Notes: a model not told the origin generated them from the letters alone. A stretch of 64,000 nucleotides of DNA from Candidatus Omnitrophota bacterium (GCA_030650425.1 JAUSED010000008.1:68554-132553), one strand, 5' to 3'. Positions 1-64,000 are shown, counted from the stretch's first letter. Program-made: numbers and translations.

Positions 1-1
1 C

Positions 2-826
2 TTGGATATTAGCAAGCTAAAAATCGTTTTTAACAGCAAGTGGTTTGAAAAAATGAAGGGCCAAGAGTTCGGGATGCTGCTTACCCACTATACAGCTAAT
101 AAAATGCTAGATCGTGAAGATTTTAGTCAGAGAAGGGCTAACAAAAAACCCGTATATATATCTGAGTTTATTTACCCCATACTTCAAGGGTATGATTCGG
201 TAATGCTTAAGGCAGATGTGGAATTAGGCGGGACCGACCAGATATTTAACCTTTTAGTTGGACGCGACCTGCAGGTGGATTTTAAACAACCTCAGCAGGT
301 AGTCATAACTATGCCGCTTTTAGAAGGGACCGACGGCGTCCAGAAAATGAGTAAGTCCTACGCTAACTATATCGGCATAAGTGAACCGACTAAAGAGATC
401 TTCGGAAAGATTATGTCTATCTCCGACGAGCTTATGCTAAAATATTACGAATTATTGACCGATGAAAATATGGATAGTATCAGAAAAATGCATCCTAAGC
501 AAGCCAAGGTAAATTTAGCTAAGCTGATCATCGCGCAATACCATTCAAAACCTGCCGCGGAAAAAGAGGCCGTGGAATTTGAGCGCGTCTTCTCGCAAAA
601 AGAAATACCGCAGGAAATCATCAAGTTTAAAACTGACGGTAAGAAAAAGATTATCATTATTCTTACTGAGAGCGGGCTGGCCGCAAGCGGTAACGAAGCC
701 CGTAGATTAATTAAGCAGGGAGCGGTAACCTTCGATAGCCAAAAAATAGAAAAGGAAGATTTTACGCCCAAGACGAGCGGTATTCTTAAGGCCGGCTCTC
801 GCAGGTTCTTGAAGATTATAATATGA
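2..826 (+). CDS. tyrS: tyrosine--tRNA ligase, C-terminal portion (5' end lies outside the window)
   Basis: KMSKS class-I aaRS signature (VQKMSKSYANYIG); GGTDQ motif; C-terminal S4-like domain (EARRLIKQGAVTFDSQKI). The ORF runs into the window edge. Confidence 0.8.
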   Translation: MDISKLKIVFNSKWFEKMKGQEFGMLLTHYTANKMLDREDFSQRRANKKPVYISEFIYPILQGYDSVMLKADVELGGTDQIFNLLVGRDLQVDFKQPQQVVITMPLLEGTDGVQKMSKSYANYIGISEPTKEIFGKIMSISDELMLKYYELLTDENMDSIRKMHPKQAKVNLAKLIIAQYHSKPAAEKEAVEFERVFSQKEIPQEIIKFKTDGKKKIIIILTESGLAASGNEARRLIKQGAVTFDSQKIEKEDFTPKTSGILKAGSRRFLKIII

Positions 827-1083
827 TCTCCACCCTCATCGGCTTAAGCGCCGCCACCTTAACTATGTTTTCCTTTATCCCGCAGATAGCTAGAGCGCTG
901 CGGACTAAATCTGTCAAAGATGTCAGCCCGGTTACCTTGTTTCAGCTTTCGCTGGGGGTGTGCTTATGGATAATCTACGGGGTTTTACGGAAAGATCCGG
1001 TAATCATAACCGCGAATGTGGTAACTTTAATCAGCCTGGGAATACTCATATTTTTGTTTTTTAAATATGGGAGAGAAAAATGA
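823..1083 (+). CDS. SemiSWEET / PQ-loop sugar transporter (about 86 aa, 3 TM)
   Basis: 86-aa hydrophobic protein with a PQ motif (FIPQIARAL) and the [11 protein letters not shown] / ANVVTL pattern, very close to characterised bacterial SemiSWEETs. Start overlaps the tyrS stop. Confidence 0.8.
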
Positions 1084-1946
1084 AAGGGATAATCTTAGCC
1101 GGCGGTAAAGCTACGCGGCTTTACCCGATTACTAAAGGTATATGTAAACAGCTGCTGCCTATTTACGATAAACCGATGATTTATTATCCGCTTTCGGTTT
1201 TAATGCTGGCTGGGATTAGGGATATTTTAGTTATTTCTACGCTTAAAGATACTCCTCGGTTTCGGGACTTGTTGGGAGACGGGAGGGGCCTGGGGATCAG
1301 ACTTTCTTATGCCGTGCAGCCTGAGCCAAAAGGCATTGCTCAAAGTTTTATTATCGCCGAAGAATTCATCGGCAGAGAGAGCGTTTCGCTTATTTTAGGA
1401 GATAATGTATTCTACGGCCATAATTTAAGCGAGCTCTTGCGGGAGGCGGCCAAGCTAAAAAACGGGGCGCTGGTTTTTGGTTATTATGTTAAAGACCCAG
1501 GCCGTTACGGCGTGGTTGAATTTAATAAAAAATGCAAGGTGGTTTCTATCGCGGAAAAGCCCAGGAAGCCAAAATCAAATTGGGTGGTTTCGGGGTTATA
1601 TTTTTATGATAACAAAGTCGTGGATATTGCCAAGAAACTCAGGCCTTCCAGCCGCGGAGAACTGGAAATCACTTCGGTTAATAATGAATACATCAAACGC
1701 GGAAAACTGAAGGTGCAATTTCTCGGCCGGGGCCACGCTTGGCTCGATACAGGCACCTACGAATCTTTGATTGATGCCTCCATCTTTATTAAGACGATCG
1801 AGGAGAGGCAGGGGTTAAAGATCGGCTGTATTGAAGAGGTTAGCTATCGCATGGGATATATCAATAAAAAACAACTTTTTAACTTAGCTAACCAGATACC
1901 TACAAGCTACGGCGAATATTTAAAGGATTTACTGAAGCAGCAGTAG
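1080..1946 (+). CDS. rmlA: glucose-1-phosphate thymidylyltransferase
   Basis: [16 protein letters not shown]...[17 protein letters not shown], the canonical RmlA/RfbA N-terminus. Length 288 aa. ATGA overlap with the upstream gene. Confidence 0.92.
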
Positions 1947-1953
1947 GGAAGCG

Positions 1954-2012
1954 GCAGTAGGGGACACTTTCCTACGTTCGTTTACTGCTTGTTGGAAAGT
2001 GTCCCCTACTGC
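1954..2012. repeat. perfect 19-bp inverted repeat (GCAGTAGGGGACACTTTCC ... GGAAAGTGTCCCCTACTGC) around a 21-nt loop, immediately after the rmlA stop
   Basis: Read directly from sequence. The arms are exact reverse complements. No downstream U-tract. Confidence 0.9.
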
Positions 2013-2048: not shown

Positions 2049-2870
2049 ATGAACAAAAAAATCCTTATACTGGGTAAAGGCTTTATCGGCGAGAGGCTGC
2101 AAAGGGCGCTGAATTGCCGGATTTCCGGAAAATTCATAAGATCTTTTGCTGATGCCGATAAAATAATCAGGCAATATAAACCTAGGGTAATCATTAATTG
2201 TATCGGTATAACGGGAAAGAGGAATGTTGATGATTGCGAACTGGAAAAAGACACAACTTTACTGGCAAATAGTTTTGTCCCGTTAATGCTGGCGGAAGCC
2301 GCGCTGCGTAATAATATCAAGCTGGTGCATATCTCTACCGGCTGTATATTTAATTTTGATTACGCTAGAAATAAGCCCATTAAAGAAGAAACTCTGCCGG
2401 ATTTTTTTGATTTATTCTATAGCCGTTCCAAGATTTATTCGGATATAGCGTTAGAAGCGTTAAGTAAGAAATACAATATTTTAATCGCACGCCTGCGTAT
2501 CCCGCTATTAAATGAATCTCATCCCAAAAACCTTCTGGATAAATTGATCAAGTATAAGCAAGTAATCGATATCCCCAATTCCGTAACCTATATCCCTGAT
2601 TTTGTCCGAGCGCTAAAACACTTGATTAAAATTAATGCCAGAGGATCCTATAACATAGTTAATAAGGGAGGCTTGCGGTATCCTAAACTTATGGATATAT
2701 ATAAAAAACATGTTCCCGGTTTTAGTTATGAAAAAATAGATTTCCATAAATTGAGTTTGACTCGCACAAATCTAATTATGTCCACGCGTAAACTTGAAAA
2801 GAGCGGTTTTAAAGTCCGTAAGATTGATTCTGTGTTGGAAGAATGCGTAAAAGAATACCTAAAATCTTAG
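2049..2870 (+). CDS. RmlD-family NAD(P)-dependent sugar-nucleotide reductase (dTDP-4-dehydro-6-deoxyhexose reductase-like)
   Basis: N-terminal Rossmann ILILGKGFIGERL; 273 aa; sugar-nucleotide-binding (RmlD-type) layout; sits between rmlA and rmlB. Confidence 0.55.
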   Translation: MNKKILILGKGFIGERLQRALNCRISGKFIRSFADADKIIRQYKPRVIINCIGITGKRNVDDCELEKDTTLLANSFVPLMLAEAALRNNIKLVHISTGCIFNFDYARNKPIKEETLPDFFDLFYSRSKIYSDIALEALSKKYNILIARLRIPLLNESHPKNLLDKLIKYKQVIDIPNSVTYIPDFVRALKHLIKINARGSYNIVNKGGLRYPKLMDIYKKHVPGFSYEKIDFHKLSLTRTNLIMSTRKLEKSGFKVRKIDSVLEECVKEYLKS

Positions 2871-3886
2871 TCACCGGAGGCGCGGGGTTTATCGCTAGCG
2901 CCTTTGCGCGATCAGTCATTGCGAGGAGCGAAGCGACGAAGCAATCTCCGTTTCTTCAGGTTATAGTTGTCGATAACCTCACCTACGCCGGCGATTTAAA
3001 ACGCCTCGGACGAAAAAGGGGACTGTCCCCGAAGGGGACTGTCCCCTTTTTCTATAAGGTAGATATTTGCGACAAAAAACAAATTGCGCGTATCTTTAAA
3101 AAAGAAAAACCTGATATCGTGGTTAACTTTGCCGCCGAAACCCACGTCGATAGAAGTATCTTAGATGGAGACAAATTTCTCACGACAAATATTCTCGGTA
3201 CACAAAACCTACTGGAAGCGGCCAAGGAATTTGGCATAAGCCGTTTTGTGCATATTTCAACCGATGAAGTTTATGGGGATATAAAAAGAGGCAGGTTTAC
3301 GGAGAATTCTCCTTTAAATCCAAGTTCACCGTATTCCGCGAGCAAGGCCAGCGCGGATTTATTGGTTAAATCATATATCAGGACCTACAAATTCCCAGCT
3401 ATAATCGTCCGTCCTTCCAATAATTACGGGCCTTGGCAATATCCCGAAAAATTAATTCCGGTAATAATTTACAAAGCTATAAAAAATGAAAAAGTTCCTA
3501 TTTATGCCAAAGGCTTGAATGTGCGCGAATGGCTCTATGTTGATGATTGCGCCAGCGCGATTTCAAAAATATTGGAAAAGGGTAAACCCGGTGAAATTTA
3601 TAATATCGGTTCAGGAAACGAATGTAAGAATATCGAAGTGGTAAAGAAAATTCTTGATATTTTGGGAAAACCGCATAGCCTGATTAAATTCGTCCAGGAC
3701 CGTCCCGGCCATGATATCCGTTATTCTCTGGATTCTTCTAAGATAAGAAGAGAACTTGGTTGGTCGCCGGAGATAAGCTTTGATACAGGGATTAAAAAAA
3801 CAGTTAATTGGTATGTCGCTAACTTCTCTTGGCTTGAAACAAAGGCTAAAATTTTAAGAAATTACTGGAAGAAGGTGTATAAATAA
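2843..3886 (+). CDS. rmlB: dTDP-glucose 4,6-dehydratase
   Basis: [12 protein letters not shown]...[11 protein letters not shown]...[12 protein letters not shown]...[14 protein letters not shown], the RmlB hallmarks. Carries an in-frame palindromic segment at 3013-3051. Confidence 0.88.
3013..3051. repeat. 39-nt near-perfect palindrome inside rmlB: A5-GGGGACTGTCCCC-GAA-GGGGACTGTCCCC-T5 (two tandem 13-nt self-complementary units)
   Basis: Read directly. Each 13-mer is its own reverse complement around a central T. Encodes ...[15 protein letters not shown]... in a loop that is only about 4 aa longer than in E. coli RmlB. Confidence 0.85.
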
Positions 3887-4944
3887 TGGCGATTGTCTTA
3901 GTTACCGGTTCTTGCGGTTTAATCGGCTCTGAAACCGTAAGTTTCTTCGCCGAAAAAGGTTTTGATGTTGTGGGAATTGATAATAATATGCGTAAGTTAT
4001 TTTTCGGAGAAGACGGTTCCGTGCTTTGGAACCTAATGCGCATTAAGGCAAAATATAAGAACTACAAACATTATTCCGCGGATATCCGACGAGAAAATCA
4101 AATTAATAAAATATTTAAAAAATATGCTTCAGATATCGCGCTAATCGTCCATGCCGCGGCCCAGCCTTCACACGATTGGGCAGCCAAAGATCCGATGATC
4201 GATTTTGGGGTGAACGCGGCCGGAACATTGATTCTTCTGGAAGCCTTGCGTAAGTTCTGCCCTCAAGCGGTTTTCATTTTTATCTCTACCAATAAAGTTT
4301 ACGGTGATACTCCGAACCGCCTGCCGCTGATTGAAAGAGAAAAGCGTTTTGAGCTTCCGACAGATCATAAATTTTATAAAGGGATTGATGAATCGATGAA
4401 TATTGATCAGTCTCTGCATTCGGTTTTCGGGGCGTCAAAGGTAAGCGCTGATATTATGACTCAGGAATACGGCAGGTATTTTGGGCTTAAAACCGGCATA
4501 TTCCGCGGCGGCTGCCTTACCGGCCCGTTACATTCCGGAGCCCAATTACACGGTTTCTTGTCTTATTTTGTAAAATGCGCAATTACCGGCCGTAAATATA
4601 TGATTTACGGGTATAAAGGCAAACAGGTGCGGGATAATATTCATTCCTACGATTTGGTGAATGCGTTTTATCATTTCTTCAAAGCGCCGCGCTCCGGCCA
4701 AGTATATAACATCGGCGGCAGCAGGCTTGCCAATATTTCCATCTTAGAGGCGATTGATTTGTGCGAAAAAATAAGCGGCAGGAAATTTAATTATGAATAC
4801 GTGGATAAAAACAGGATCGGCGACCATATCTGGTGGATAAGCGACGTCTCCAAATTCAAATCGCATTATCCCGGATGGCAATACAAATTCGGCATAGAGG
4901 ATACGATGCAACAGATTTACCAAGCGCAGAAAGAATTGTTATGA
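3886..4944 (+). CDS. NAD-dependent epimerase/dehydratase (extended SDR, CDP-paratose/tyvelose 2-epimerase-like)
   Basis: [13 protein letters not shown]; [11 protein letters not shown]; [11 protein letters not shown] (YxxxK). 352 aa. Confidence 0.6.
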
Positions 4945-5978
4945 AATATAAAAGTTTACTGATTACCGGCGGCGCGGGTTTTATCGGCAGCAACTTAGCG
5001 GTCTATTTTAAGCGTAAATTTCCGTTTCTTAAGGTGTTTGTTTTAGATAATCTGGTGCGCCGGGGAAGTGAATTTAATTTGCCGCGGCTTAAAGAAAACG
5101 GCATTAAATTTATCCGCGGGGATATTCGGCGTCCTAAAGACCTTGATTTGAAGTTTGAAATAGACTTGATATTGGAATGTTCTGCGGAGCCCTCGGTATT
5201 GGCAGGTTATCAGAATCCAGCCTATATTATTGACACAAATCTGATCGGCACGGTTAATTGCCTTGAGTTGTGCCGCAAGCGTAAAGCGGGGATGATTTTT
5301 CTTTCTACCAGCAGGGTTTATCCTTATGAAAAAATAAACGCGATTAGGCGCCTGGAAACAAAAAGCAGGTTTGAATGGCCGCGTTCTTCCGGTATTGGCG
5401 CGGATTTTTCTCTGACCGGACCAAAGACTTTATACGGCGCGACTAAACTGGCGTCGGAATTCATCCTTCAGGAGTATATTGCCGCATACGGCATCAGAGC
5501 GGTTGTGAATCGTTGCGCAGTGGTTGCCGGACCGTGGCAGTTTGGCAAGGTTGACCAAGGTGTGTTTACCTACTGGATGCTGGCGCACTATTTTAAGAAA
5601 CCGCTTAAATATATCGGTTTTGGCGGGCAGGGAAAGCAGGTGCGCGATCTTTTACACGTTGATGACCTTTGCCGGTTAATTGGCTTGCAGGCAAACATCC
5701 TTTCTCAATTAAGCGGTAATACCTATAATGTCGGCGGCGCAAGAGAGGTAAGCCTTTCTTTGTTGGAGGCCACCGCGCTTTGCCGGCAGATTACCGGTAA
5801 CAAGATTAAAGTAGGACGAAACCCGCGTAACCGGCCGGGAGATATCGCGATATACCTTACAGACAACCAGAAAGTTACCCGGGAACTGAAATGGAAACCG
5901 CAGAAGCCGGCAGCAATGATTCTAAATGATATCTTTAACTGGATTAGAGATAATGAATCACAGCTAAGAGAGCTATAG
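4941..5978 (+). CDS. NAD-dependent epimerase/dehydratase (CDP-paratose 2-epimerase-like), paralogue of the previous gene
   Basis: [18 protein letters not shown]...[14 protein letters not shown]...YGATKLASE. Start taken at ATG 4941 (ATGA overlap) rather than the upstream in-frame extension in the ORF track. Confidence 0.65.
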
Positions 5979-6725: not shown

Positions 6726-6739
6726 GCAAAAAACACTTT

Positions 6740-56596: not shown

Positions 56597-57283
56597 ATGG
56601 CGATCTTCTTGGATACGGGAAATATTAAAGAGGTAGAAAGATTCATGAAAATGGGTATTATCCGCGGTGTGACTACTAATCCGACCATATTGTTTAAGGC
56701 CGGGGTAACGTCAGGTAATCAAGGAATTAAGTCTAGGTCTATTGAGATCTCGAAGATAATAGCGCCCTATCCTTTGTCTGTCGAGGTCACGACTAACGAT
56801 TATGACAAGATGATCGAACAGGCTCAGGAATATTCAGGATGGGCTAAGAATATTAACGTGAAGATCACTATCCACGGCCCAAAGGGCGAGACCGAAAACC
56901 TTGAAGCTATACACGAGCTTTCATCAAAATATAAGATGAGCATTAACGCGACCGCTATGATGAGCGCCCAGCAATGCTTGCTTGCTGCAATGGCAGGCGC
57001 TGAGTATGTGTCTATTTTTGGAGGTAGGGTTAATAATATGGGCTATAATTCTTGTTCCGAGATCAGCAAGCTCAGGGTTGTGCTTGACAGGCAGCAGTTA
57101 ACCTCAAAGATTATAGTAGGTTCTACTAGGGAGGTTCTTAATATCATAGAGTGGCTGGAGGCTGGCGCGGATATTGTCACCGTTTTGCCGGAGATACTTA
57201 ACGGCATGATTGTTCATCCTTATTCAAAGGAGACTGTGCAGATGTTTCTGGAAGACGCAGCCAAGACAGAAAGGTTGCTCTAA
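56597..57283 (+). CDS. transaldolase-family protein (Fsa/TalC-type)
   Basis: IFLDTGNIKEV...GVTTNPTIL, the Fsa/TalC N-terminus. 228 aa. Confidence 0.8.
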   Translation: MAIFLDTGNIKEVERFMKMGIIRGVTTNPTILFKAGVTSGNQGIKSRSIEISKIIAPYPLSVEVTTNDYDKMIEQAQEYSGWAKNINVKITIHGPKGETENLEAIHELSSKYKMSINATAMMSAQQCLLAAMAGAEYVSIFGGRVNNMGYNSCSEISKLRVVLDRQQLTSKIIVGSTREVLNIIEWLEAGADIVTVLPEILNGMIVHPYSKETVQMFLEDAAKTERLL

Positions 57284-57297: not shown

Positions 57298-58086
57298 ATG
57301 CTTGCTATGGAAAAAAGAAGATTGGTTTTAAGGACAAAATTGAGAAGTCGCAAACTGGTTTTTGCGGCTTGGACATCGCTCTATCATCCTTCAATAACGG
57401 AGATCTTCAGCCATTCCGGGGTTGATTTTGTAGGGATAGATATCGAGCATAGTACTATAAGCCAGGAACAGTCTCAACGCATCATCGCAACAGCCCAGGC
57501 ATCAGATTCATTATGCCTGCCAAGGGTAGCGTCGCATAATATGGAAATGATAAAACGGTTGTTGGATTCCGGGGCTGACGGTATCATAGTCCCTATGGTT
57601 AATACTGCGCGGGAAGCCCGGGAGATCGCATCCTGGTGTAAATATCCGCCGCAGGGAAAGCGCAGTTTTGGAATTTCCCGCGGGCAGGGTTACGGTTTTG
57701 ATTTTGACAGGTATACAAAAAAATGGAATTCTGTTTCTTCGCTGATAGTCCAGATAGAATCTATTACCGGAGTTGAGAATATTGAAGATATCCTTGGCAT
57801 AGATGCTGTAGACGCAGCAATGGTAGGCCCTTATGATCTCTCAGGTTCACTTAATATTCCCGGAAAAATTGACCACCCAAAAATCCGCGAAGCGGCAAAA
57901 CGGGTTATTGCCGCGTGCAGGAAAGCCGGTAAAGCCTGTGGCACGCAGATCATAGATCCCGATGCCAGACAGATAAAAAATGCCTTAGATCAGGGGTTTA
58001 CTTTTATTGTCCTTTCCTCAGATGTTTTTTTACTCTGGAAATGGGCGCAAAGGATGCGTGGGTATACCCGTATGAATAGAAAATAA
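57298..58086 (+). CDS. HpcH/HpaI-family class II (pyruvate/2-keto-3-deoxy acid) aldolase
   Basis: IVQIESITGVENIEDILGIDAVDAAMVGPYDLSGSL block. 262 aa. Confidence 0.65.
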   Translation: MLAMEKRRLVLRTKLRSRKLVFAAWTSLYHPSITEIFSHSGVDFVGIDIEHSTISQEQSQRIIATAQASDSLCLPRVASHNMEMIKRLLDSGADGIIVPMVNTAREAREIASWCKYPPQGKRSFGISRGQGYGFDFDRYTKKWNSVSSLIVQIESITGVENIEDILGIDAVDAAMVGPYDLSGSLNIPGKIDHPKIREAAKRVIAACRKAGKACGTQIIDPDARQIKNALDQGFTFIVLSSDVFLLWKWAQRMRGYTRMNRK

Positions 58087-58089: not shown

Positions 58090-58743
58090 ATGAACCATAA
58101 GGTTATTGTTTTTGATTTTGACGGCGTAATCGTTGAATCGAACGGTATCAAGCACGATGCTTTTTCCAGTATTTTTCGCCGCTACCCAAAATATTACAAA
58201 ACTATGATGTCGTTTCATTACGAACACAATCATCTGCCTCGCCAGGATAAATTCAGGTATCTGGTGAAGGAACTAATGGGTAAAACTGACTGCGAGGATG
58301 ATGTTGCCAGCCTTACTTATGAGTTTGAGGGTTTAACGCGGCAGCGAATCATTTCCTGTCCATATGTTGCGGGGGCTAGGGAATGCATAGATTATTTCTC
58401 TGATCGTCTTCCATTGTATATAGTTTCAGCCACGCCAGAAGCGGAATTAATGATTATACTTGAGGCTCGGGACATGATTAAGAAGTTTAAGGGAGTGTAT
58501 GGCCCTCCTATGACAAAGAGCCATGCTTTTAAAACGATAATTGGGCAAGAACAGGTTGCCGCCTTTCAGGTTTTGTTTGTCGGAGATAGCATTGAAGATT
58601 ATTCTGTCGCGAAAGAAGCGGGAATTTATTTTGTAGCAAGAAAAACTAAAGAAAATTCATTCGATGCGCATATACCTATTTGTAATAATCTAAGCGAATT
58701 AAAGGATTTGATTCTTGATGGTTCGAAGCCAGCATGGCGATAG
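58090..58743 (+). CDS. HAD-superfamily hydrolase (phosphatase)
   Basis: VIVFDFDGVIV (DxD motif I); LFVGDSIEDY. Confidence 0.7.
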   Translation: MNHKVIVFDFDGVIVESNGIKHDAFSSIFRRYPKYYKTMMSFHYEHNHLPRQDKFRYLVKELMGKTDCEDDVASLTYEFEGLTRQRIISCPYVAGARECIDYFSDRLPLYIVSATPEAELMIILEARDMIKKFKGVYGPPMTKSHAFKTIIGQEQVAAFQVLFVGDSIEDYSVAKEAGIYFVARKTKENSFDAHIPICNNLSELKDLILDGSKPAWR

Positions 58744-58753
58744 GAGGTACGAA

Positions 58754-59533
58754 TTGTCTGAATACATTTCAGGTCTTTTTGGTTTAGAAGGTAAGACTGC
58801 TGCTGTTATTGGGGCCGGCGGATATCTTTGTAGTGAAATGTCCAAAGCATTCTCTAAGGCCGGAGCTAGGGTGGCCGTCATTGATAAAAACCTGGAAAAT
58901 GCTAAAAAGGTTTCTGAAGCTATCCGCGCTTTTGGCGGTGATTCCATAGCTTTGGATATAGACGTCACACAAAAAGGAAGCCATGAAAAGGCGCTTGAAA
59001 CAGTGCTTAAGAAATTCAAGACTATAGATATCCTGGTTAATGGCGCGGGGATAAATGCTCCTACTAAGTTTTTTGAGATAAGCCTGCAGGAATGGGAGGG
59101 TATTATTGCCGTTTGTCTTACCGGCACCATGCTTGGTTGTCAGGTTTTCGGCGGCCAAATGGTAAAAGAGAATAAGGGGTCCATTATTAATGTATCATCT
59201 GCTTCGGCTGGGCCGCCGCTTTCGAAGGCGTTTACCTATTCCGTAGCTAAGTCCGGGGTAAAAAATCTTACCCAGAATCTGGCCCGCGAATGGGCTCCTT
59301 ACAATGTAAGGGTTAATGCTCTTTGTCCGGGATTTTTTCCGACCGAATGGAGTAAAAATAATTTTATTGACGTACACAGAGAAAAGGCTATATTAGAACA
59401 TACTCCAATGAAAAGGTATGGAAGGCCTGAAGAGTTAGTAGGAGCAGTGCTTTGGCTTTCTTCTGAGTCTGCCAGTTTTGTCACGGGCGCAGAGATAAAA
59501 GTGGATGGCGGATTTTCCTGCATGACTATATAG
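58754..59533 (+). CDS. SDR-family oxidoreductase (FabG-like)
   Basis: KTAAVIGAGGYLC; YSVAKSGV (YxxxK). TTG start with AGGAGG RBS 6 nt upstream. Confidence 0.7.
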   Translation: MSEYISGLFGLEGKTAAVIGAGGYLCSEMSKAFSKAGARVAVIDKNLENAKKVSEAIRAFGGDSIALDIDVTQKGSHEKALETVLKKFKTIDILVNGAGINAPTKFFEISLQEWEGIIAVCLTGTMLGCQVFGGQMVKENKGSIINVSSASAGPPLSKAFTYSVAKSGVKNLTQNLAREWAPYNVRVNALCPGFFPTEWSKNNFIDVHREKAILEHTPMKRYGRPEELVGAVLWLSSESASFVTGAEIKVDGGFSCMTI

Positions 59534-59540: not shown

Positions 59541-60305
59541 ATGAAAAAAAATGTTGCTGGGAAAATGGTGGTTATCACAGGCGGCAGCCGGGGCATAGGC
59601 GCTGCGATCACCAAGGCATTTTGGGAGGCCGGAGACTATGTGCTTGTCGGAGCAAGAAGATCCAACGATTTTCTTAAAGGCTTCGGAAGGAGGGTTCGTT
59701 TTAAAAAGATTGACGTGCGCTTTGAATCAGAACAGGCGGCCTTAGCGGGCACAGCCATAAAATGGAGAGGCCGAATAGATATATTTGTAAATTGCGCGGG
59801 ATTTTCCGATTGGCGCTCTGTGGATAAAGTTGATGAAAAATTCTGGAGCACAATGATCGACACGAACCTAAAGGGGGTATTTTGGGGCTGCAAGGTTGCT
59901 TCCCTCTGCCTGCCTAAAGGCGGCTGTATCATTAATATCTCAAGCCTCGCCGGAAAACGCGGCAGCGCAAACAACTCCGTTTATTGCGCGTCAAAATTTG
60001 GTGTTAATGGAATAACGCAGTCGTTGGCGAAAGAGTTGGGTCCCAGAGGGATCAGGGTAAATGCGCTATGCCCTGTCTATGTTGAGACTGAAGCCTTACA
60101 TAACGCGCTTGGCGATGAGCTATCTCCGTCAGGAGGAAAGAATATAAACGTTTTCTTGAAAGATTTTGCTAAAAGTAATGCGGCGCTGAGGCGTTTGCCT
60201 AGCGCTGAAGAGATAGCGCAACTTTGCGTTTTCTTGGCATCGGATAAAGCCTCGGCAATTACCGGCCAGTGCATTAATGTTGACTGCGGAGTTTTGCCGC
60301 AATAA
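59541..60305 (+). CDS. SDR-family oxidoreductase (FabG-like)
   Basis: MVVITGGSRGIGAAI; YCASKFGV. Confidence 0.75.
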   Translation: MKKNVAGKMVVITGGSRGIGAAITKAFWEAGDYVLVGARRSNDFLKGFGRRVRFKKIDVRFESEQAALAGTAIKWRGRIDIFVNCAGFSDWRSVDKVDEKFWSTMIDTNLKGVFWGCKVASLCLPKGGCIINISSLAGKRGSANNSVYCASKFGVNGITQSLAKELGPRGIRVNALCPVYVETEALHNALGDELSPSGGKNINVFLKDFAKSNAALRRLPSAEEIAQLCVFLASDKASAITGQCINVDCGVLPQ

Positions 60306-60319: not shown

Positions 60320-61093
60320 GTGCGCAAACGAAAGGTAGTAGGCGTAATACCCGCGCGGATGGAGGCATCGAGGTTTCCGGGAAAACCGCTGGCGATGATA
60401 CTCGGTTTGCCGATGATCGAGCATGTGCGCAGAAGAGTTTGCCTCTCCGATGTATTTGACGATATTTATGTAGCGACATGCAACAAAGAGATATTTGATA
60501 CGGTTAGGAAAAATGGCGGCAAGGCCTTAATGACAGCGAATACCCATCAACGTTGCACGGATAGGGTAGAAGAAGCGGTCCGTGAAATCGACGCCGACAT
60601 CGTAGTCATAATCCAGGGGGACGAGCCCCTGCTCGATCCGCATATCTTCCATAGCTTAATTGAGCCTATGTTGAGAGATAATTTTCTAAAATGCGCTAAT
60701 CTCTTATCGGTTATAAATGAGAAAAGCGACCTGGCGGATACCGATATAGTAAAGGCTGTTTTGGATGAGCAGGGTTTTGTGATGTATTATTCAAGGGCGC
60801 CGATTCCTTACCTGCGCGCGGATAAATCTCGCCCGATGTATCGTCAGACAGGATTATCGGTTTTCACAAAAAAATTTATTCAGCTATTTTCTAATTTGGC
60901 GCCTACGCCCCTTGAAAAAGCAGAATCTGTTGATTTTTTACGTATCCTTGAGCACGGTTACGAAATTAAAGGTGTCCTCTATAATAATATGACGGTTGGC
61001 ATAGACCGTCAGGATGATATTCAAAAAGTGGAAACCATCCTAAAAGCCGATCCAAAACAGTTCGGCATATATGAAAATATATTAAAGATATGA
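60320..61093 (+). CDS. 3-deoxy-manno-octulosonate cytidylyltransferase-like (CMP-Kdo synthetase family)
   Basis: VVGVIPARMEASRFPGKPLAMILGLPMIEHV matches the KdsB N-terminus. GTG start with AGGAGA RBS. Confidence 0.7.
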   Translation: MRKRKVVGVIPARMEASRFPGKPLAMILGLPMIEHVRRRVCLSDVFDDIYVATCNKEIFDTVRKNGGKALMTANTHQRCTDRVEEAVREIDADIVVIIQGDEPLLDPHIFHSLIEPMLRDNFLKCANLLSVINEKSDLADTDIVKAVLDEQGFVMYYSRAPIPYLRADKSRPMYRQTGLSVFTKKFIQLFSNLAPTPLEKAESVDFLRILEHGYEIKGVLYNNMTVGIDRQDDIQKVETILKADPKQFGIYENILKI

Positions 61094-62013
61094 AAGCGAA
61101 GATATTTGTTGCCTTGTCTTCATTTGCGGAATTTGGAAACGAGCCCTTGAAGCTATTTGAGGATAATGGGTTTGAATACTCCCTTAATTCTCTGGGAAGG
61201 CGCCTGATACAGCAGGAAATCGTCCAGCTGGGAAAAGACTGCGAAGGGATTATCGCGGGGGTTGAACCTTATGACGATTATGTGTTGGAGAGGATGCCGA
61301 AACTACGTTGTATAAGCCGCTGCGGCGTTGGAATAGATAATATAGACCTGGGGAAGGCAAAAGAAAAAGGGATTACCGTCAAAAATACCCCCGATATTGT
61401 AACCCTGCCTGTAGCTGAGTTGACGATAGGTATGATCTTTGATTTGTTGCGGAAGATATCCTATCACACTAATCTGATGAAAGCGCGCCAATGGCGGAGA
61501 AAGGCAGGCAGTTTGCTTTCAGGCAGTAAAATCGGAGTCTTGGGGTTAGGGAGGATAGGGAAAAAAGTATCTGAAATGCTCGTTGGTTTGAATGCCGTTG
61601 TTTACGGAGCCGATTTATCTCCAAACACTTCCTGGGCAGCGAAGAATAAAGTTGAAATTGTTTCTAAGGATTTTATATTAAGGGAATGTGATATCATAAC
61701 TATTCATATTGCATCACCGGAGGGGGAGGAGTTTATTCTTAGTAAAAAAGAAATCGAAGCTATGAAAAAAGGGGCTTTATTGATCAATACCTCCAGAGGT
61801 AAATTTCTTGATGAAACAGCCTTATGCGCTGCCTTGGAGTCAAATCATCTAGGCGGAGCTGCGTTAGATGTGTATTCCCAGGAGCCTTATGCTGGGCCTT
61901 TATGCGATATGGATAATGTTGTGTTAATCCCCCATCTAGGCAGTTTCACCAGAGAATCAAGAAATCAAATGGAAATAGAAGCCGTTAAAAATGCAATCAA
62001 TTTTCTTAAGTAA
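61090..62013 (+). CDS. D-isomer-specific 2-hydroxyacid dehydrogenase (NAD-binding)
   Basis: IGVLGLGRIGKKV; catalytic and NAD-binding domain layout. Confidence 0.8.
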   Translation: MKAKIFVALSSFAEFGNEPLKLFEDNGFEYSLNSLGRRLIQQEIVQLGKDCEGIIAGVEPYDDYVLERMPKLRCISRCGVGIDNIDLGKAKEKGITVKNTPDIVTLPVAELTIGMIFDLLRKISYHTNLMKARQWRRKAGSLLSGSKIGVLGLGRIGKKVSEMLVGLNAVVYGADLSPNTSWAAKNKVEIVSKDFILRECDIITIHIASPEGEEFILSKKEIEAMKKGALLINTSRGKFLDETALCAALESNHLGGAALDVYSQEPYAGPLCDMDNVVLIPHLGSFTRESRNQMEIEAVKNAINFLK

Positions 62014-62041
62014 ATTTCAAGCAGTATATTTTAAACTAAGC

Positions 62042-62698
62042 ATGTTTACGAAAAGCTTGCGGAATATTCCTGCGCAAACAAGCAAAGAAATAAATATGTT
62101 CAAGATAATTCTTGATCAATATCTAGATAGGCCTATTAAAATTTTTGAATGGGGGAGCGGATGCAGCACAATTTATTATTCAAAGTATTTAAAATCTAAA
62201 AATGCGAATTTCCAGTGGCATGCGGTTGATAATAATAAGCCTTGGTATGAAAAGGTATTAACTGATATAAAAAAAGAAAATCTGATCTCTCATATCCATC
62301 TATATTTGAAAGAATTCTTGCCATTTTGGCAGAAGCCGGGATGGGGCCAAATACCGCCTCCCTGCGCTGTTTTTAGCCCGAAGGAAGATAATGAATGGGC
62401 TTATATTCGTCTGCCTCAAGAGATGAATCAGAAATTTGATATCATTATTATTGACGCAAGGTTTCGCAGGCATTGCGTTCAGATTGCCAAGCAGGTACTC
62501 GCCCCCGGTGGGGTTGTGATTATGCATGACGCGCATAAACCGCATTATCACCAGGGATTGGAGGGTTTTCCTTTAAGGAGTTTTTACGATACTGGTTCTT
62601 GGTATCCGTTTCAAGAAAGACCCAATCAAGTTTGGGTGGGCAGTATGAAAAATCAAATTATTTTTGACGTACTAAAATCATTCGAGAAGGCTGTATGA
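62042..62698 (+). CDS. putative SAM-dependent methyltransferase-like protein (start uncertain)
   Basis: IFEWGSGCSTIYY (GxGxG-like); IIIDARF...GGVVIMHD. The ORF track extends upstream to 61991 into the previous gene, so the start is uncertain. Confidence 0.35.
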   Translation: MFTKSLRNIPAQTSKEINMFKIILDQYLDRPIKIFEWGSGCSTIYYSKYLKSKNANFQWHAVDNNKPWYEKVLTDIKKENLISHIHLYLKEFLPFWQKPGWGQIPPPCAVFSPKEDNEWAYIRLPQEMNQKFDIIIIDARFRRHCVQIAKQVLAPGGVVIMHDAHKPHYHQGLEGFPLRSFYDTGSWYPFQERPNQVWVGSMKNQIIFDVLKSFEKAV

Positions 62699-64000
62699 TG
62701 AAAGTCTTGCTTATTAATCCCCCGATGTTGGTAGATGAAAAACCGAAATTTCCTTCTTTTGGCATGGCCTATATTTATCATGCCTTACGGTCAGCTGGTT
62801 ATGAAACGGCCTTGCTGGATATTGACGCTTATCGCTACCCTAAAGAATACGTTCTTGACTTTATCCGGGCGAATCAACCGGATGTAATTGGTCTAGGCGG
62901 CCTGGTCACGGTTTACCCTTATTTGGCCTGGCTGGTCCCGGAGGCCCGGAAAATATTCCCGGATATTAAAATAGCGCTTGGAGGTCCGGTAGCCTCATCG
63001 TTAAGAGAAAGGTGTTTTGAACGGTTAGCCGTTGATTTTATTGTTGTCGGGGAAGGCGAACTAACTGTTGTCCAGTTATTAAATGCCTTGCAGGGCAAGG
63101 AAAATATACTTCAGGTGAATGGAATAGGATTTAAAGATAGCGGAAAGGTTATTTTTACAGAACCCAGGCCCTTGATGCCGGATCTCTCAGGGGTGCCTTT
63201 TTTTGATGATACGATCTTTCCGATGGAAGATTTTCTTAAGCGGAGCTCCGGGGTTTTCCAGATTCACGTCCAACGGGGATGTCCGTCTAATTGCACTTTT
63301 TGTTTTAACGCCTTCCGTGTGGTGAGCCGAAAGGTGCGTTATCGGCCTGTCTCGCATATTCTGAGGGAGTTAAAATCGTTTAAAGAGAAATATAAAGAAA
63401 AAATAAGTCTTTTTGCGCTCGCAGGTGAATGCGTCACTATGAACAGAGAATGGCTGAGAGATTTCTCCCAAGGCCTAATTGAGGCCGAATTAAACATCAA
63501 TTATCGTGTTACCTCCCGCGTTGATACGATCGATGAAGAAAGATTGGAGTGGCTGCGCAGAAGCGGCTGCTCAACAATCTCTTTTGGGCTTGAATCCGGC
63601 AGCAGCGATATCCTAAGAATTATGCGGAAAAACTCTACGCCGGAGAAAGGCCTCCGCGCTGTTCATTTGGCGCGGAAGTATATCCCGCACGTTGAAGTTT
63701 CCATTATGCTGGGATATGTGGGAGAAAATCGGAAAACCTTGGATGAGACAGTATCTTTTTGCAAAAAGCTGGGCATCCGTCCGGTTATTTTTTATGCGAC
63801 ACCTTTTCCGGGTACGGAACTCTATTCCATGGCGCTGCAAAAAAGACGTATTCTTGACGAAGAAAGTTATCTGATGGGCCTGGATAAAAAGGTTATTTCT
63901 GCGTTGAACCTGAATTTAACCGATATGGAAGATAAGGATGCGCGCTCCTTAATCATTGCGGCCCATAAAGAAATTGAGAGATATTATTTTGTACGCAGCC
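62698..64000 (+). CDS. cobalamin-binding (class B) radical SAM protein, 3' end outside the window
   Basis: Open frame from ATG 62698 to the window edge with no stop. VLLINPP... B12-binding-like N-terminus; QRGCPSNCTFC. Not in the ORF track because it is unterminated. Confidence 0.7.
   Translation, partial: MKVLLINPPMLVDEKPKFPSFGMAYIYHALRSAGYETALLDIDAYRYPKEYVLDFIRANQPDVIGLGGLVTVYPYLAWLVPEARKIFPDIKIALGGPVASSLRERCFERLAVDFIVVGEGELTVVQLLNALQGKENILQVNGIGFKDSGKVIFTEPRPLMPDLSGVPFFDDTIFPMEDFLKRSSGVFQIHVQRGCPSNCTFCFNAFRVVSRKVRYRPVSHILRELKSFKEKYKEKISLFALAGECVTMNREWLRDFSQGLIEAELNINYRVTSRVDTIDEERLEWLRRSGCSTISFGLESGSSDILRIMRKNSTPEKGLRAVHLARKYIPHVEVSIMLGYVGENRKTLDETVSFCKKLGIRPVIFYATPFPGTELYSMALQKRRILDEESYLMGLDKKVISALNLNLTDMEDKDARSLIIAAHKEIERYYFVRS

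What the first reader, a model, noticed from the sequence alone, without database searches (positions are those of the whole stretch)
1..64000. 64 kb with every gene on one strand and extensive stop/start overlap
About 62 consecutive CDSs lie on the + strand. Many junctions are ATGA, TAATG or GTGA overlaps (1080, 3886, 4941, 16784, 29590, 43080, 47028, 50053, 61090 and others). Only a handful of gaps exceed 40 nt. All credible minus-strand ORFs in the track are shadow ORFs inside + strand genes. This is consistent with a few very long translationally coupled transcripts, which is an extreme organisation for a glycan locus.
Basis: seen in the sequence. Interest (0 to 1): 0.55.

Follow-up and report, generated by a model that had tools for sequence, protein, structure and literature searches.

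The report
One-strand giant glycan locus, Omnitrophota
The 64 kb window is the sugar-precursor part of a very large surface-glycan gene cluster in an uncultured Omnitrophota bacterium; all genes do lie on one strand and are tightly packed, but unrelated neighbouring genes in relatives are arranged the same way, so this is mostly a chromosome trait and not one giant glycan operon.

Summary
The window holds 62 CDSs, all on the + strand, at 98.8% coding density. Of 61 junctions, 22 overlap (nine by 4 nt, three by 1 nt, four by 8 nt). The median gap is 6 nt and only four gaps exceed 40 nt. All minus-strand ORFs look like shadows.

The DNA comes from a Candidatus Omnitrophota genome. In five or more relatives, every called gene for at least 28 kb upstream of tyrS is also on the tyrS strand and is similarly compact. 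These genes (type IV pilus, RNase G, L21, Obg, ProBA, NadD, S1) have nothing to do with glycans. Co-orientation is therefore a regional or lineage property with positive GC skew, not a signature of one glycan transcript.

Two of the four larger gaps carry promoter evidence. One has a sigma70-like promoter conserved in relatives. The other has TTGACA-16-TACGAT followed by two exact GTTCA-N5-TGAAC palindromes in front of a MarR-like regulator. A third gap holds a 22-bp hairpin. The stretch 22148 to beyond 64000 has no gap over 36 nt and could be one very long operon, but this is untested.

One-strand organisation is normal for glycan loci; only the size is exceptional.

The parts
2..826 (+). g01 tyrS, C-terminal 274 aa of tyrosyl-tRNA synthetase
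   Evidence: Pfam tRNA-synt_1b 1e-43. It is 69-77% identical to Omnitrophota MAG TyrRS.
823..1083 (+). g02 SemiSWEET/PQ-loop membrane protein, 86 aa, with ATGA overlaps on both sides
   Evidence: MtN3_slv 1.7e-12 and PQ-loop. It is called as a gene on Logan contig L011 and is conserved after tyrS in relatives.
1080..1946 (+). g03 RmlA-like sugar-1-phosphate nucleotidyltransferase
   Evidence: NTP_transferase 5e-73
1954..2012 (.). 22-bp perfect inverted repeat (hairpin) in the 102-nt gap, with a third arm copy at 2024-2039 and no U-tract
   Evidence: RNA fold -51.2 kcal/mol, z -6.2. Repeat I1. Arm copies. It is absent in relatives, where rmlA and g04 overlap. Logan contig L011 ends inside it.
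2049..2870 (+). g04 RmlD-like short SDR
   Evidence: RmlD_sub_bind 2e-13
2843..3886 (+). g05 NDP-sugar 4,6-dehydratase (RmlB-like), carrying an in-frame GGGGACTGTCCCC doublet at 3012-3052
   Evidence: GDP_Man_Dehyd 1.5e-74. Palindrome.
3886..4944 (+). g06 SDR epimerase/dehydratase
   Evidence: Epimerase 8e-35
4941..5978 (+). g07 SDR epimerase/dehydratase
   Evidence: Epimerase 1e-37
5985..6725 (+). g08 conserved protein with no family match
   Evidence: No Pfam or NCBIfam hit. Relatives have homologues at 63-78% identity.
6735..6764 (+). Candidate internal promoter: TTTATT, 16-nt spacer, TG-n-TATAAT (extended -10)
   Evidence: Sequence. The -35/-10-like boxes are conserved directly after the g08 stop in L002, L004, L013, L015 and L019, although the downstream genes differ.
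6825..7559 (+). g09 papain-like cysteine peptidase
   Evidence: Peptidase_C1 4.5e-15
7569..8612 (+). g10 GDP-mannose 4,6-dehydratase
   Evidence: GDP_Man_Dehyd 7e-136
8605..9579 (+). g11 GDP-fucose-synthase-like epimerase/reductase
   Evidence: Epimerase 3e-54
9591..9659 (+). Candidate regulated promoter: TTGACA-16-TACGAT (9591-9618) followed by two exact GTTCA-N5-TGAAC palindromes (9621-9635 and 9645-9659)
   Evidence: Promoter scan 10/12; this is the only such site in an intergenic gap. Sequence. Palindrome: 2 matches against 0.02 expected.
9679..10218 (+). g12 MarR_EPS-like winged-helix regulator
   Evidence: HTH_24 6e-7. TIGR04176 MarR_EPS 4.7e-14, below the cutoff.
10236..11267 (+). g13 PseB, UDP-GlcNAc 4,6-dehydratase (inverting)
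   Evidence: TIGR03589 472.8 bits against a cutoff of 407.75
11306..12271 (+). g14 GSU2086-family protein
   Evidence: NF052581 1.6e-118
12258..12734 (+). g15 cytidylyltransferase-like protein
   Evidence: CTP_transf_like 1e-16
12736..14268 (+). g16 HldE-like nucleotidyltransferase plus PfkB kinase (heptose pathway), domain order reversed
   Evidence: PfkB and CTP_transf_like. HldE and rfaE domains I and II, below cutoffs.
14278..14850 (+). g17 SIS-domain isomerase (GmhA-like)
   Evidence: SIS_2 5e-14
14853..15920 (+). g18 radical SAM/SPASM enzyme
   Evidence: Radical_SAM and SPASM
15945..16787 (+). g19 split transketolase, N-terminal subunit
   Evidence: Transketolase_N 5.5e-35
16784..17704 (+). 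g20 split transketolase, C-terminal subunit (ATGA overlap)
   Evidence: Transket_pyr and Transketolase_C
17706..18371 (+). g21 SAM methyltransferase
   Evidence: Methyltransf_31/11/25
18381..19463 (+). g22 radical SAM enzyme
   Evidence: Radical_SAM 4.5e-23
19493..20371 (+). g23 SDR epimerase
   Evidence: Epimerase 7e-36
20386..21582 (+). g24 sugar C-methyltransferase
   Evidence: Methyltransf_13/14
21592..22101 (+). g25 WbuC-family cupin
   Evidence: TIGR04366 1.7e-35
22148..23398 (+). g26 sugar C-methyltransferase; first gene of the stretch with no gap over 36 nt
   Evidence: Methyltransf_14 2.6e-42. Gaps.
23420..24571 (+). g27 methyltransferase
   Evidence: Methyltransf_11/23
24564..25310 (+). 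g28 short-chain dehydrogenase
   Evidence: adh_short_C2 9e-29
25334..26587 (+). g29 TIGR04372-family glycosyltransferase
   Evidence: TIGR04372 8.5e-71
26596..28188 (+). g30 TIGR04372-family glycosyltransferase
   Evidence: TIGR04372 3.5e-66
28181..29593 (+). g31 protein of unknown family; the only hint is a weak YfhO-like (membrane protein family) match
   Evidence: YfhO at E 0.0025 only
29590..30549 (+). g32 FkbM methyltransferase (GTGA overlap)
   Evidence: Methyltransf_21 1e-11
30559..32370 (+). g33 PglK/MsbA-like fused ABC exporter
   Evidence: ABC_tran and ABC_membrane. PglK model 5e-99, below the cutoff.
32377..34521 (+). g34 fusion of an RmlD-like reductase and the PseC aminotransferase
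   Evidence: TIGR03588 PseC 473.4 bits against a cutoff of 423.5; rmlD domain
34546..36156 (+). g35 B12-binding radical SAM enzyme
   Evidence: B12-binding and Radical_SAM
36163..37479 (+). g36 class III aminotransferase
   Evidence: Aminotran_3 3e-43
37480..38367 (+). g37 aldo/keto reductase
   Evidence: Aldo_ket_red 3e-36
38392..39771 (+). g38 B12-binding radical SAM enzyme
39771..40310 (+). g39 GNAT acetyltransferase (TAATG overlap)
   Evidence: Acetyltransf_3 2e-21
40327..41055 (+). g40 CMP-sugar cytidylyltransferase
   Evidence: CTP_transf_3 3e-31
41055..42047 (+). g41 PseG-like nucleotidase
   Evidence: TIGR03590 4.4e-29, below the cutoff
42049..43083 (+). g42 NeuB/PseI-family nonulosonic acid synthase
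   Evidence: NeuB 2e-71. It scores below both equivalog cutoffs.
43080..44090 (+). g43 ATP-grasp ligase (ATGA overlap)
   Evidence: ATP-grasp_3
44097..44837 (+). g44 PIG-L family deacetylase
   Evidence: PIG-L 1e-24
44824..45327 (+). g45 GNAT acetyltransferase
45364..47031 (+). g46 B12-binding radical SAM enzyme
47028..48119 (+). g47 methyltransferase (ATGA overlap)
48123..50060 (+). g48 AsnB-like amidotransferase
   Evidence: GATase_7 and Asn_synthase
50053..52008 (+). g49 PFTS-motif polysaccharide biosynthesis protein (rare)
   Evidence: TIGR04417 7e-32. PF27878. Only 5 homologues at E<=1e-10.
52022..53872 (+). g50 TIGR04326/TIGR04396-like surface carbohydrate biosynthesis protein
   Evidence: Weak hits. 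There is a homologue in L024.
53880..54962 (+). g51 GFO/IDH/MocA oxidoreductase
54943..55971 (+). g52 methyltransferase
55982..56584 (+). g53 SIS-domain isomerase
56597..57283 (+). g54 transaldolase/fructose-6-phosphate aldolase family
   Evidence: TAL_FSA 3e-35
57298..58086 (+). g55 HpcH/HpaI class II aldolase
   Evidence: 1e-35
58090..58743 (+). g56 HAD phosphatase
58718..59533 (+). g57 short-chain dehydrogenase
   Evidence: The start agrees with the Logan gene call.
59541..60305 (+). g58 short-chain dehydrogenase
60320..61093 (+). g59 KdsB-like CMP-ulosonic acid cytidylyltransferase
   Evidence: NF009905 263.8 bits against a cutoff of 255; TIGR00466 159.5 against 155.2
61090..62013 (+). g60 D-2-hydroxyacid dehydrogenase (ATGA overlap)
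61991..62698 (+). g61 methyltransferase (Methyltransf_24)
62695..64000 (+). g62 B12-binding radical SAM enzyme. It runs off the window (the full gene is 62695-64113) and is followed by a + strand GT2 gene from 64131.
   Evidence: Logan contig L012. GT2.

Best explanation
The window is the 5' part of a very large surface-glycan biosynthesis locus in a Candidatus Omnitrophota genome. This part mostly makes nucleotide-sugar precursors. The locus lies directly downstream of tyrS.

What the locus encodes (shown by family matches):
- dTDP/NDP-hexose, GDP-mannose/fucose and heptose routes.
- A pseudaminic-acid-like nonulosonic acid route.
- A Kdo-like CMP-ulosonic acid route.
- Many methyltransferases and five B12-radical-SAM enzymes.
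- A PglK-like ABC exporter and four candidate transferases from poorly characterised families.
- Classical GT2 genes start just beyond the window.

Why all genes are on one strand (shown by comparison): the locus sits inside a long chromosomal stretch in which every gene is co-oriented. In relatives this stretch includes at least 28 kb of unrelated genes upstream of tyrS. G exceeds C and T exceeds A at third codon positions, which is the usual signature of the leading, or heavily transcribed, strand. New glycan genes are evidently retained only in that orientation. The genome is also compact, at 93-99% coding in the neighbouring housekeeping region.

How it is probably expressed (inferred, not shown): transcription most likely runs in several polycistronic units, not one.
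- Unit 1 enters from tyrS or further upstream. It crosses, or is attenuated or stabilised by, the 22-bp hairpin at 1954-2012, and ends after g08.
- Unit 2 starts at the conserved promoter at about 6735-6764.
- Unit 3 starts at the MarR-controlled promoter at 9591-9659.
- Unit 3 may run up to 55 kb, or may be broken at the 46-nt gap at 22102-22147 or by promoters inside genes.

The 22 overlapping stop/start junctions allow termination-reinitiation coupling. Most downstream genes also have their own Shine-Dalgarno-like motif.
For: Lineage: TyrRS is 69-77% identical to Omnitrophota MAGs. The neighbouring Obg and TPR proteins of relatives are named Omnitrophota by NCBI.

Gene content. PseB, PseC and KdsB-like score above the curated cutoffs.

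Layout: 62 of 62 CDSs on +, 98.8% coding, 22 of 61 overlaps, 4 gaps over 40 nt.

Co-orientation beyond the locus: tool gene calls in relatives are all on + in L026-L032, covering PilC, pilins, PilMNOQ, radical SAM, Memo/AMMECR1, RsmE, MiaB-like, RNase G, L21, Obg, ProB, ProA, NadD, Rpe, PGM, PlsC, S1, TyrS, then glycan genes (Pfam on L019). The Pirellulales outgroup locus L009 has mixed strands.

Composition: GC skew is +0.05 to +0.27 across the window and +0.04 to +0.25 in related loci. GC3 skew is +0.18 and AT3 skew is -0.24.

Variable site: the same site downstream of tyrS holds a different glycan locus (Wzx plus GT2) in L028.

Other loci of this type: loci with the rare PFTS protein are also fully one-stranded, L024 22/22 and L025 13/13.

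Internal promoters.

Hairpin.

SD-like motifs: 39 of 61 starts against 18.6% background.

No antitermination element or known RNA family: Rfam gave 0 hits, and the ops core occurs at chance level.
Against: - No transcript data exist, so the unit boundaries are inferred from sequence only.
- The sigma70 and terminator consensus scans are at chance level overall. They can neither find nor exclude promoters inside genes.
- Genome-wide strand bias could not be measured. All related loci sample the same syntenic neighbourhood, so they are not independent samples of the chromosome.
- The replication direction is inferred from skew alone.
- The glycan product and its acceptor (LPS, capsule or protein) are unknown. 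No initiating transferase, Wzx, Wzy or ligase lies in the window.
Confidence: 0.7

Rival explanations
1. The one-strand, overlap-rich layout exists because the glycan locus is expressed as one or a few giant, translationally coupled transcripts. The organisation would then be a specific adaptation of this locus, for example for stoichiometric co-expression, possibly with processive antitermination.
For: 57 of 61 junctions are 40 nt or less, and 22 overlap. No terminator-like site lies in any intergenic gap except the hairpin, which has no U-tract. The stretch 22148 to beyond 64000 has no gap over 36 nt. Gaps over 40 nt are rarer here (4 of 61) than in the housekeeping region of relatives, where they make up roughly a quarter of junctions.
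Against: Co-orientation and compaction continue through at least 28 kb of unrelated genes in relatives. A conserved promoter follows g08. A promoter plus paired operators precedes the MarR-like gene. There is no NusG/RfaH/UpxY-like protein among the 62 products, no JUMPStart or other Rfam hit, and ops occurs at chance level. Most genes carry their own SD-like motif.
Confidence: 0.2
2. The window is an assembly artefact or chimera. Fragments of several organisms' glycan loci would have been joined, and the uniform strand would come from how the contigs were concatenated.
For: GC content varies between genes (34-50%). GC3 skew is near 0 for genes 1-11 but 0.2-0.45 for genes 23-49. MAG contigs of relatives tend to break just downstream of tyrS. 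The Logan assembly is fragmented and breaks at the hairpin.
Against: Independent Logan contigs are 100% identical and collinear over 1-2007 and over the continuous 27 kb from 36648 to 64000. Codon-usage scores are uniform across all 60 complete genes, at 0.10-0.31. ORFs are tiled seamlessly with overlapping stop/start codons across every junction, which random joins would not produce. The first 9.5 kb is syntenic with several relatives. Mosaic composition is normal for horizontally exchanged glycan modules.
Confidence: 0.04
3. The cluster is not a surface-glycan locus but a secondary-metabolite cluster, aminoglycoside-like or glycosylated natural product. Such clusters are also often unidirectional.
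For: The window has five B12-radical-SAM enzymes, two further radical SAM enzymes, NDP-sugar C-methyltransferases, aminotransferases and an ATP-grasp ligase. One NCBIfam hit of g62 is to AprD4-type enzymes. Few classical glycosyltransferases lie in the window.
Against: PseB and PseC score above their equivalog cutoffs. PseG-like, NeuB-family and two CMP-transferases are present, one of them KdsB-like above its cutoff. Gmd/Fcl, GmhA/HldE-like, a PglK/MsbA-like exporter, a MarR_EPS-like regulator and the TIGR04372, PFTS and TIGR04326 surface-carbohydrate families are also present. GT2 follows at 64131. The related PFTS locus L024 continues into GT2 and Wzy_C. No PKS, NRPS or aminocyclitol core enzyme was found.
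Confidence: 0.05

Closest known systems
Leptospira rfb (LPS O-antigen) locus
   Same: It is a very large glycan locus of tens of kb and dozens of genes. It begins with a MarR-family regulator and fcl, followed by many sugar-modifying enzymes (PMC10958091). From my own knowledge, not verified with the tools here, nearly all of its genes are on one strand. Several NCBIfam surface-carbohydrate families that hit here (TIGR04326 'O_ant_LIC13510', TIGR04372, TIGR04396) are of the type found in such loci.
   Different: The phylum is different. No Wzx or Wzy lies in the window. Here the one-strand layout extends far beyond the glycan genes.
Enterobacterial O-antigen/capsule operons (JUMPStart/ops with RfaH) and Bacteroides capsule loci (UpxY)
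   Same: These are unidirectional, tightly packed glycan operons of 10-30 genes, transcribed as long units.
   Different: There is no JUMPStart or other Rfam match, and the ops core occurs at chance level inside genes. No NusG-like protein is among the products. This locus is 3-5 times longer. It has sequence evidence for internal promoters.
High gene-strand-bias chromosomes or domains (Bacillota up to about 85%; the 600-kb high-bias region of Gemmatimonadota)
   Same: These are long stretches in which almost all genes face the same way, including core and highly expressed genes, together with replication-associated skew (PMC11237797).
   Different: Omnitrophota are not mentioned in that work or in any paper I could find. 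I could only sample about 30 kb plus the 64 kb window, not a chromosome. The position relative to ori and ter is unknown.
Pseudaminic acid pathway and flagellin/protein glycosylation islands (Campylobacter, Helicobacter, Clostridium)
   Same: PseB and PseC equivalogs are present. So are PseG-like, NeuB/PseI-family, a CMP-transferase, GNAT, ATP-grasp, an AsnB-like amidotransferase and methyltransferases, as in Pse-derivative islands.
   Different: No Maf/DUF115 transferase or flagellin is in the window. PseG, PseI and PseF-like score below the equivalog cutoffs. From my own knowledge, those islands are usually of mixed orientation and smaller per pathway.

Membership tests
Single operon (one polycistronic transcription unit) | All genes on the same strand | tested here: met
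   62 of 62 CDSs are on +
Single operon (one polycistronic transcription unit) | Short intergenic distances throughout | tested here: met
   57 of 61 junctions are 40 nt or less and the median is 6 nt. Four gaps of 46-102 nt remain.
Single operon (one polycistronic transcription unit) | No internal promoters | tested here: not met
   A sigma70-like promoter is conserved after g08. TTGACA-16-TACGAT plus two GTTCA-N5-TGAAC operators lie before g12. This is sequence evidence only.
Single operon (one polycistronic transcription unit) | One continuous transcript observed | not testable with these tools
   No RNA data are available
Translationally coupled gene pairs | Stop and start codons overlap or abut (ATGA, TAATG and similar) | tested here: met
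   22 of 61 junctions overlap; 9 by 4 nt, 3 by 1 nt and 4 by 8 nt
Translationally coupled gene pairs | Downstream translation depends on upstream translation | not testable with these tools
   14 of the 22 overlapped starts have their own SD-like motif, so independent initiation is possible
RfaH/ops or JUMPStart antitermination-controlled glycan operon | An ops (GGCGGTAG) or JUMPStart element in the 5' leader | tested here: not met
   There are 2 matches, both inside genes, against 1.08 expected. Rfam gave no hit.
RfaH/ops or JUMPStart antitermination-controlled glycan operon | A NusG-paralogue (RfaH/UpxY/LoaP) gene associated with the locus | tested here: not met
   None of the 62 window products has a NusG/KOW domain. 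One could be encoded elsewhere in the genome.
High gene-strand-bias chromosomal domain | Co-orientation extends over functionally unrelated neighbouring genes | tested here: met
   L026-L032 have 23-29 of 23-29 genes on one strand, reaching at least 28 kb upstream of tyrS
High gene-strand-bias chromosomal domain | The coding strand is the leading strand (skew signature) | tested here: inconclusive
   GC skew is positive throughout, GC3 skew is +0.18 and AT3 skew is -0.24. This fits leading-strand bias but also transcription-associated bias. ori and ter were not located.
High gene-strand-bias chromosomal domain | Bias measured over the whole chromosome or a domain with defined borders | not testable with these tools
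   Only 20-kb slices around looked-up genes can be fetched, and the look-up caps are exhausted
Pseudaminic acid biosynthesis pathway | PseB and PseC | tested here: met
   TIGR03589 scores 472.8 against 407.75 and TIGR03588 scores 473.4 against 423.5
Pseudaminic acid biosynthesis pathway | PseH, PseG, PseI and PseF equivalogs | tested here: inconclusive
   PseG scores 102 against a cutoff of 153.55. PseI scores 257 against 340 and NeuB scores 299 against 400. For PseH and PseF, only general GNAT and CTP_transf_3 family hits were found.
Surface polysaccharide (O-antigen/capsule) locus | Nucleotide-sugar synthesis genes together with glycosyltransferases and an exporter | tested here: met
   Many NDP-sugar enzymes, two TIGR04372 glycosyltransferases, the PFTS protein and a PglK-like ABC exporter. 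GT2 lies just beyond the window.
Surface polysaccharide (O-antigen/capsule) locus | Initiating phosphoglycosyl transferase, polymerase or ligase | tested here: not met
   None lies in the window. The locus continues beyond 64 kb. The related locus L024 has Wzy_C.

The most novel reading that the evidence does not exclude
This Omnitrophota clade may have a chromosome, or a very large chromosomal domain, with essentially complete gene co-orientation. Joining the relatives' upstream genes to the window by synteny gives at least about 95 consecutive genes over roughly 92 kb without one opposite-strand gene. That would exceed the ~85% maximum strand bias reported for Bacillota. To my knowledge, Omnitrophota are not among the PolC-carrying phyla in which strong strand bias is usual; I did not check this here. 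Within that domain, the stretch from the MarR-controlled promoter at 9.6 kb to beyond 64.9 kb could be a single operon of more than 55 kb, which would be among the longest known in bacteria.
Probability: 0.25. Interest if true: 0.55.

Novelty: new member of a known kind. Interest (0 to 1): 0.3.

Why it matters
As posed, the finding is mostly explained. One-strand glycan loci are the norm, and here the strand uniformity belongs to the chromosome neighbourhood, not to the locus.

Three things remain useful:

1. It is a documented example of a glycan locus of more than 65 kb and more than 63 genes in Omnitrophota. This phylum of ultra-small, possibly host-dependent bacteria has an unstudied surface chemistry. 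The locus has an unusually rich set of sugar-tailoring enzymes: five B12-radical-SAM enzymes, C-methyltransferases, a split transketolase and a Kdo-like route built on a class II aldolase.

2. There is a hint that this lineage has extreme gene-strand bias and compaction. That can be tested quickly on existing 0.2-0.7 Mb contigs. It bears on the open question of what sets strand bias in bacteria.

3. There are concrete, testable promoter and operator sites for a MarR-type regulator at the head of the long gene array.

Tried and rejected
- Rfam on the whole window gave no match, so there is no JUMPStart, EAR or riboswitch.
- tRNA scan: none found.
- Sigma70 promoter and intrinsic-terminator consensus scans gave counts no higher than, or barely above, shuffled controls, and nearly all sites lie inside genes. 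These scans cannot settle the operon structure. Only the site at 9591-9618 lies in a gap.
- The ops core motif occurs at chance level.
- Literature: nothing was found on strand bias or gene orientation in Omnitrophota, on coding density specific to Omnitrophota, or on the PFTS, TIGR04372 and TIGR04326 families. The unidirectionality of the Leptospira rfb locus could not be confirmed in the papers held, so it is cited as my own knowledge.
- My crude ORF picker called a minus-strand gene in L005, L006, L013 and L019. It turned out to be the shadow of ribosomal protein L21 and was discarded.
- I considered a flagellin-glycosylation island and rejected it, because no Maf or flagellin is present.
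- I considered a prophage or mobile element and rejected it, because no phage, integrase or transposase domain is among the window products.
- The source contig itself was not found in the searchable collections. Only Logan fragments of it were found, so the ends of the run could not be reached in the source organism.

Full report

Yes. ORF listing shows 61 + strand ORFs of at least 100 aa tiling the window end to end. No minus-strand ORF is longer than 154 aa.

The one apparent 253-nt gap (826-1080) is filled by an 86-aa PQ-loop/SemiSWEET gene at 823-1083. It overlaps tyrS and the next gene by ATGA on both sides.

With curated starts, 22 of 61 junctions overlap. Nine overlap by 4 nt, three by 1 nt, four by 8 nt and six by 14-28 nt. 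The median spacing is 6 nt, four gaps exceed 40 nt and 98.8% of the bases are coding.

The one qualification is 50053, which is an 8-nt overlap and not one of the three named types. Independent gene calls on public Logan contigs of the same DNA use the same starts for 36.6-64 kb.

The 12 minus ORFs of at least 100 aa all lie within + genes. Their codon-usage scores are -0.39 to +0.03, against +0.10 to +0.31 for the + genes.

No tRNA and no Rfam family interrupts the array.

**2. Where does the DNA come from, and is the assembly sound?**

The partial TyrRS is 69-77% identical to TyrRS of Candidatus Omnitrophota MAGs and of groundwater and sediment metagenome contigs. Obg and a TPR protein from the same neighbourhood in relatives are named Omnitrophota by NCBI.

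The window is 100% identical to contigs assembled independently from run SRR13727527, over 1-2007 and over a continuous 27 kb from 36648 to 64000. That contig extends 0.9 kb past the window. There, g62 ends at 64113 and a + strand GT2 glycosyltransferase starts at 64131. So the run, and the locus, continue.

**3. What do the genes encode?**

The window is a glycan-precursor factory.

*Nucleotide-sugar routes*
- An RmlA-like transferase and four SDR enzymes.
- Gmd and an Fcl-like enzyme.
- PseB, above its equivalog cutoff.
- A heptose set: a GmhA-like SIS protein and an HldE-like fusion.

*Tailoring enzymes*
- Radical SAM/SPASM enzymes and a split transketolase.
- Two sugar C-methyltransferases and a WbuC cupin.
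- Three further B12-radical-SAM enzymes, giving five in all.

*Candidate transferases and export*
- Two TIGR04372 glycosyltransferases.
- A PglK/MsbA-like ABC exporter.
- A rare PFTS-motif protein with only five homologues, and a TIGR04326-like protein.

*Nonulosonic acid block*
- A PseC fused to an RmlD-like domain.
- A CMP-transferase, a PseG-like enzyme, a NeuB-family synthase, an ATP-grasp ligase, a PIG-L deacetylase, GNATs and an AsnB-like amidotransferase.

*Kdo-like module*
- SIS, transaldolase, HpcH aldolase, HAD, two SDRs, a KdsB-like enzyme above its cutoff, and a 2-hydroxyacid dehydrogenase.

No initiating transferase, Wzx, Wzy or ligase lies in the window.

**4. Is the one-strand layout specific to the glycan locus?**

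No. This is the key result.

Relatives share the order tyrS, SemiSWEET, rmlA, g04, g05, g06, g08, then gmd and fcl, all on one strand.

More importantly, gene calls supplied by the look-up tool for Omnitrophota contigs around obg and tyrS are 24/24, 27/27, 24/24, 25/25, 23/23, 26/26 and 29/29 on the tyrS strand. These genes reach at least 28 kb upstream of tyrS and are functionally unrelated to glycans. They include PilC, pilins, PilM/N/O and secretin, a radical SAM enzyme, Memo/AMMECR1, RsmE, a MiaB-like enzyme, RNase G, L21, Obg, ProB, ProA, NadD, Rpe, phosphoglucomutase, PlsC and ribosomal protein S1.

That upstream region is itself 93-99% coding. By the same naive measure it has a similar share of overlapping junctions.

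A Pirellulales locus picked up by the same search has mixed orientation. The method can therefore see strand switches.

The coding strand has positive GC skew in the window (+0.05 to +0.27) and in the relatives. At third codon positions G exceeds C (+0.18) and T exceeds A (-0.24). This is the usual leading-strand signature, although transcription-associated bias gives the same sign.

Two further loci that carry the rare PFTS protein are also fully one-stranded, at 22/22 and 13/13 genes.

In L028 a different glycan locus (Wzx plus GT2) follows tyrS. The site downstream of tyrS is therefore a variable glycan site embedded in a conserved co-oriented stretch.

**5. One transcript or several?**

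Consensus scans for sigma70 promoters and intrinsic terminators are at shuffled-control level, and nearly all sites lie inside genes. They decide nothing. The four larger gaps are more informative.

- *Gap 6726-6824.* It holds TTTATT-16-TGaTATAAT directly after the g08 stop. The same -35/-10-like boxes are conserved at the same place in five relatives, although the gene that follows differs: a peptidase here and gmd in L002; the others were not identified. A non-coding motif conserved ahead of changing cargo is good comparative evidence for a promoter.
- *Gap 9580-9678.* It holds TTGACA-16-TACGAT, the only 10/12 promoter match that lies in a gap. This is followed by two exact GTTCA-N5-TGAAC palindromes 24 bp apart, found nowhere else in the window (0.02 expected). 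They lie directly before a MarR_EPS-like regulator. This looks like an autoregulated promoter at the head of the long array. The Leptospira rfb locus is also described as starting with a MarR regulator (PMC10958091).
- *Gap 1947-2048.* It holds a 22-bp perfect hairpin (-51 kcal/mol, z -6.2) with no U-tract. It is absent in relatives, where rmlA and g04 overlap. The Logan contig ends inside it. It looks like an inserted, probably multi-copy, palindromic element. It could attenuate or stabilise RNA.
- *Gap 22102-22147.* I saw no obvious signal in it.

SD-like motifs precede 39 of 61 starts against 18.6% background, including 14 of the 22 overlapped starts. Translational coupling is therefore possible but not required.

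No ops or JUMPStart element and no NusG paralogue is present.

My reading is at least three transcription units. The last one is possibly 42-55 kb long.

**6. Comparison with what is known**

To my knowledge, unidirectional, tightly packed organisation is standard for O-antigen and capsule loci. The Leptospira rfb locus is a known case of similar size and, from memory, near-complete one-strandedness. I could not verify that in the papers held.

Long, highly strand-biased chromosomal regions are known in Bacillota and Gemmatimonadota (PMC11237797). I found no such report for Omnitrophota.

The window is therefore a new, very large member of a known kind of locus, sitting in a known kind of chromosomal context.

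**7. Verdict**

I rate interest as low to moderate (0.3).

The most novel reading still open is near-total gene co-orientation of this Omnitrophota chromosome, together with a single operon of more than 50 kb. It is cheap to test on existing long contigs and with metatranscriptomes.

Noticed in passing
window 3012-3052 (inside g05); L019 18421-18570; L027 20456-20966: A doublet of the palindrome GGGGACTGTCCCC sits in frame inside the RmlB-like gene. It encodes [10 protein letters not shown], a 6-aa insertion relative to relatives. The same doublet, tandemly repeated (QKGLSPQGTVPEILVWGSGRG, more than two copies), forms an in-frame insertion of about 46 aa in the fcl homologue of relative L019. 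SPQGTVP and SPKGTVP occur in two loops of the g05 homologue in L027. This looks like a small palindromic element that inserts in frame, reminiscent of Rickettsia palindromic elements.
   Followed up: partly
window 1954-2012 and 2024-2039: An intergenic 22-bp perfect hairpin contains a GGGGACA core and has a third arm copy. It is absent at this junction in all relatives. The independent Logan contig L011 ends inside it, which suggests a multi-copy repeat.
   Followed up: partly
window 50053-62013; L024 10001-19772; L025: The rare PFTS-motif protein has only 5 homologues in 5.8 billion clusters. In the window and in L024 it lies near a NeuB-family synthase, and next to a module made of an HpcH class II aldolase, a HAD phosphatase, a KdsB-like CMP-transferase, a 2-hydroxyacid dehydrogenase and a g50-like protein. 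L025, whose contig ends at the PFTS gene, shows the NeuB-family synthase but not that module. This may be a CMP-ulosonic acid pathway that uses a non-KdsA aldolase, with its dedicated transferase.
   Followed up: partly
window 823-1083: An 86-aa SemiSWEET (PQ-loop) gene is wedged between tyrS and rmlA with ATGA overlaps on both sides. It is conserved at this position in most relatives. A sugar transporter translationally linked to a tRNA synthetase and a glycan locus is odd.
   Followed up: partly
window 1-9579 versus 19493-52008: Third-position GC skew is about 0 for the conserved genes 1-11 but 0.2-0.45 for genes 23-49. GC content varies from 34% to 50% between genes. This suggests a mosaic origin by horizontal transfer, or very different transcription levels along the array.
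   Followed up: no
window 6825-7559: A papain-family cysteine peptidase (Peptidase_C1) gene lies inside the glycan locus, directly behind the conserved promoter. Relatives carry other genes at this position.
   Followed up: no
window 34546-36156, 38392-39771, 45364-47031, 62695-64000 (plus the radical SAM genes at 14853 and 18381): An unusually high number of B12-binding radical SAM and other radical SAM enzymes is present in one sugar locus. No Pfam-recognisable GT2 or GT4 lies within 64 kb. The first GT2 begins at 64131.
   Followed up: no
L032 3438-4028: An IS200-type Y1 transposase gene in a relative's upstream region is also on the common strand. Even mobile DNA conforms to the orientation there.
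   Followed up: no
L028 19454-20954: In a more distant Omnitrophota relative, tyrS is followed directly by a Wzx-type flippase and a GT2 instead of SemiSWEET and rmlA. The position downstream of tyrS is a variable glycan-locus site.
   Followed up: no
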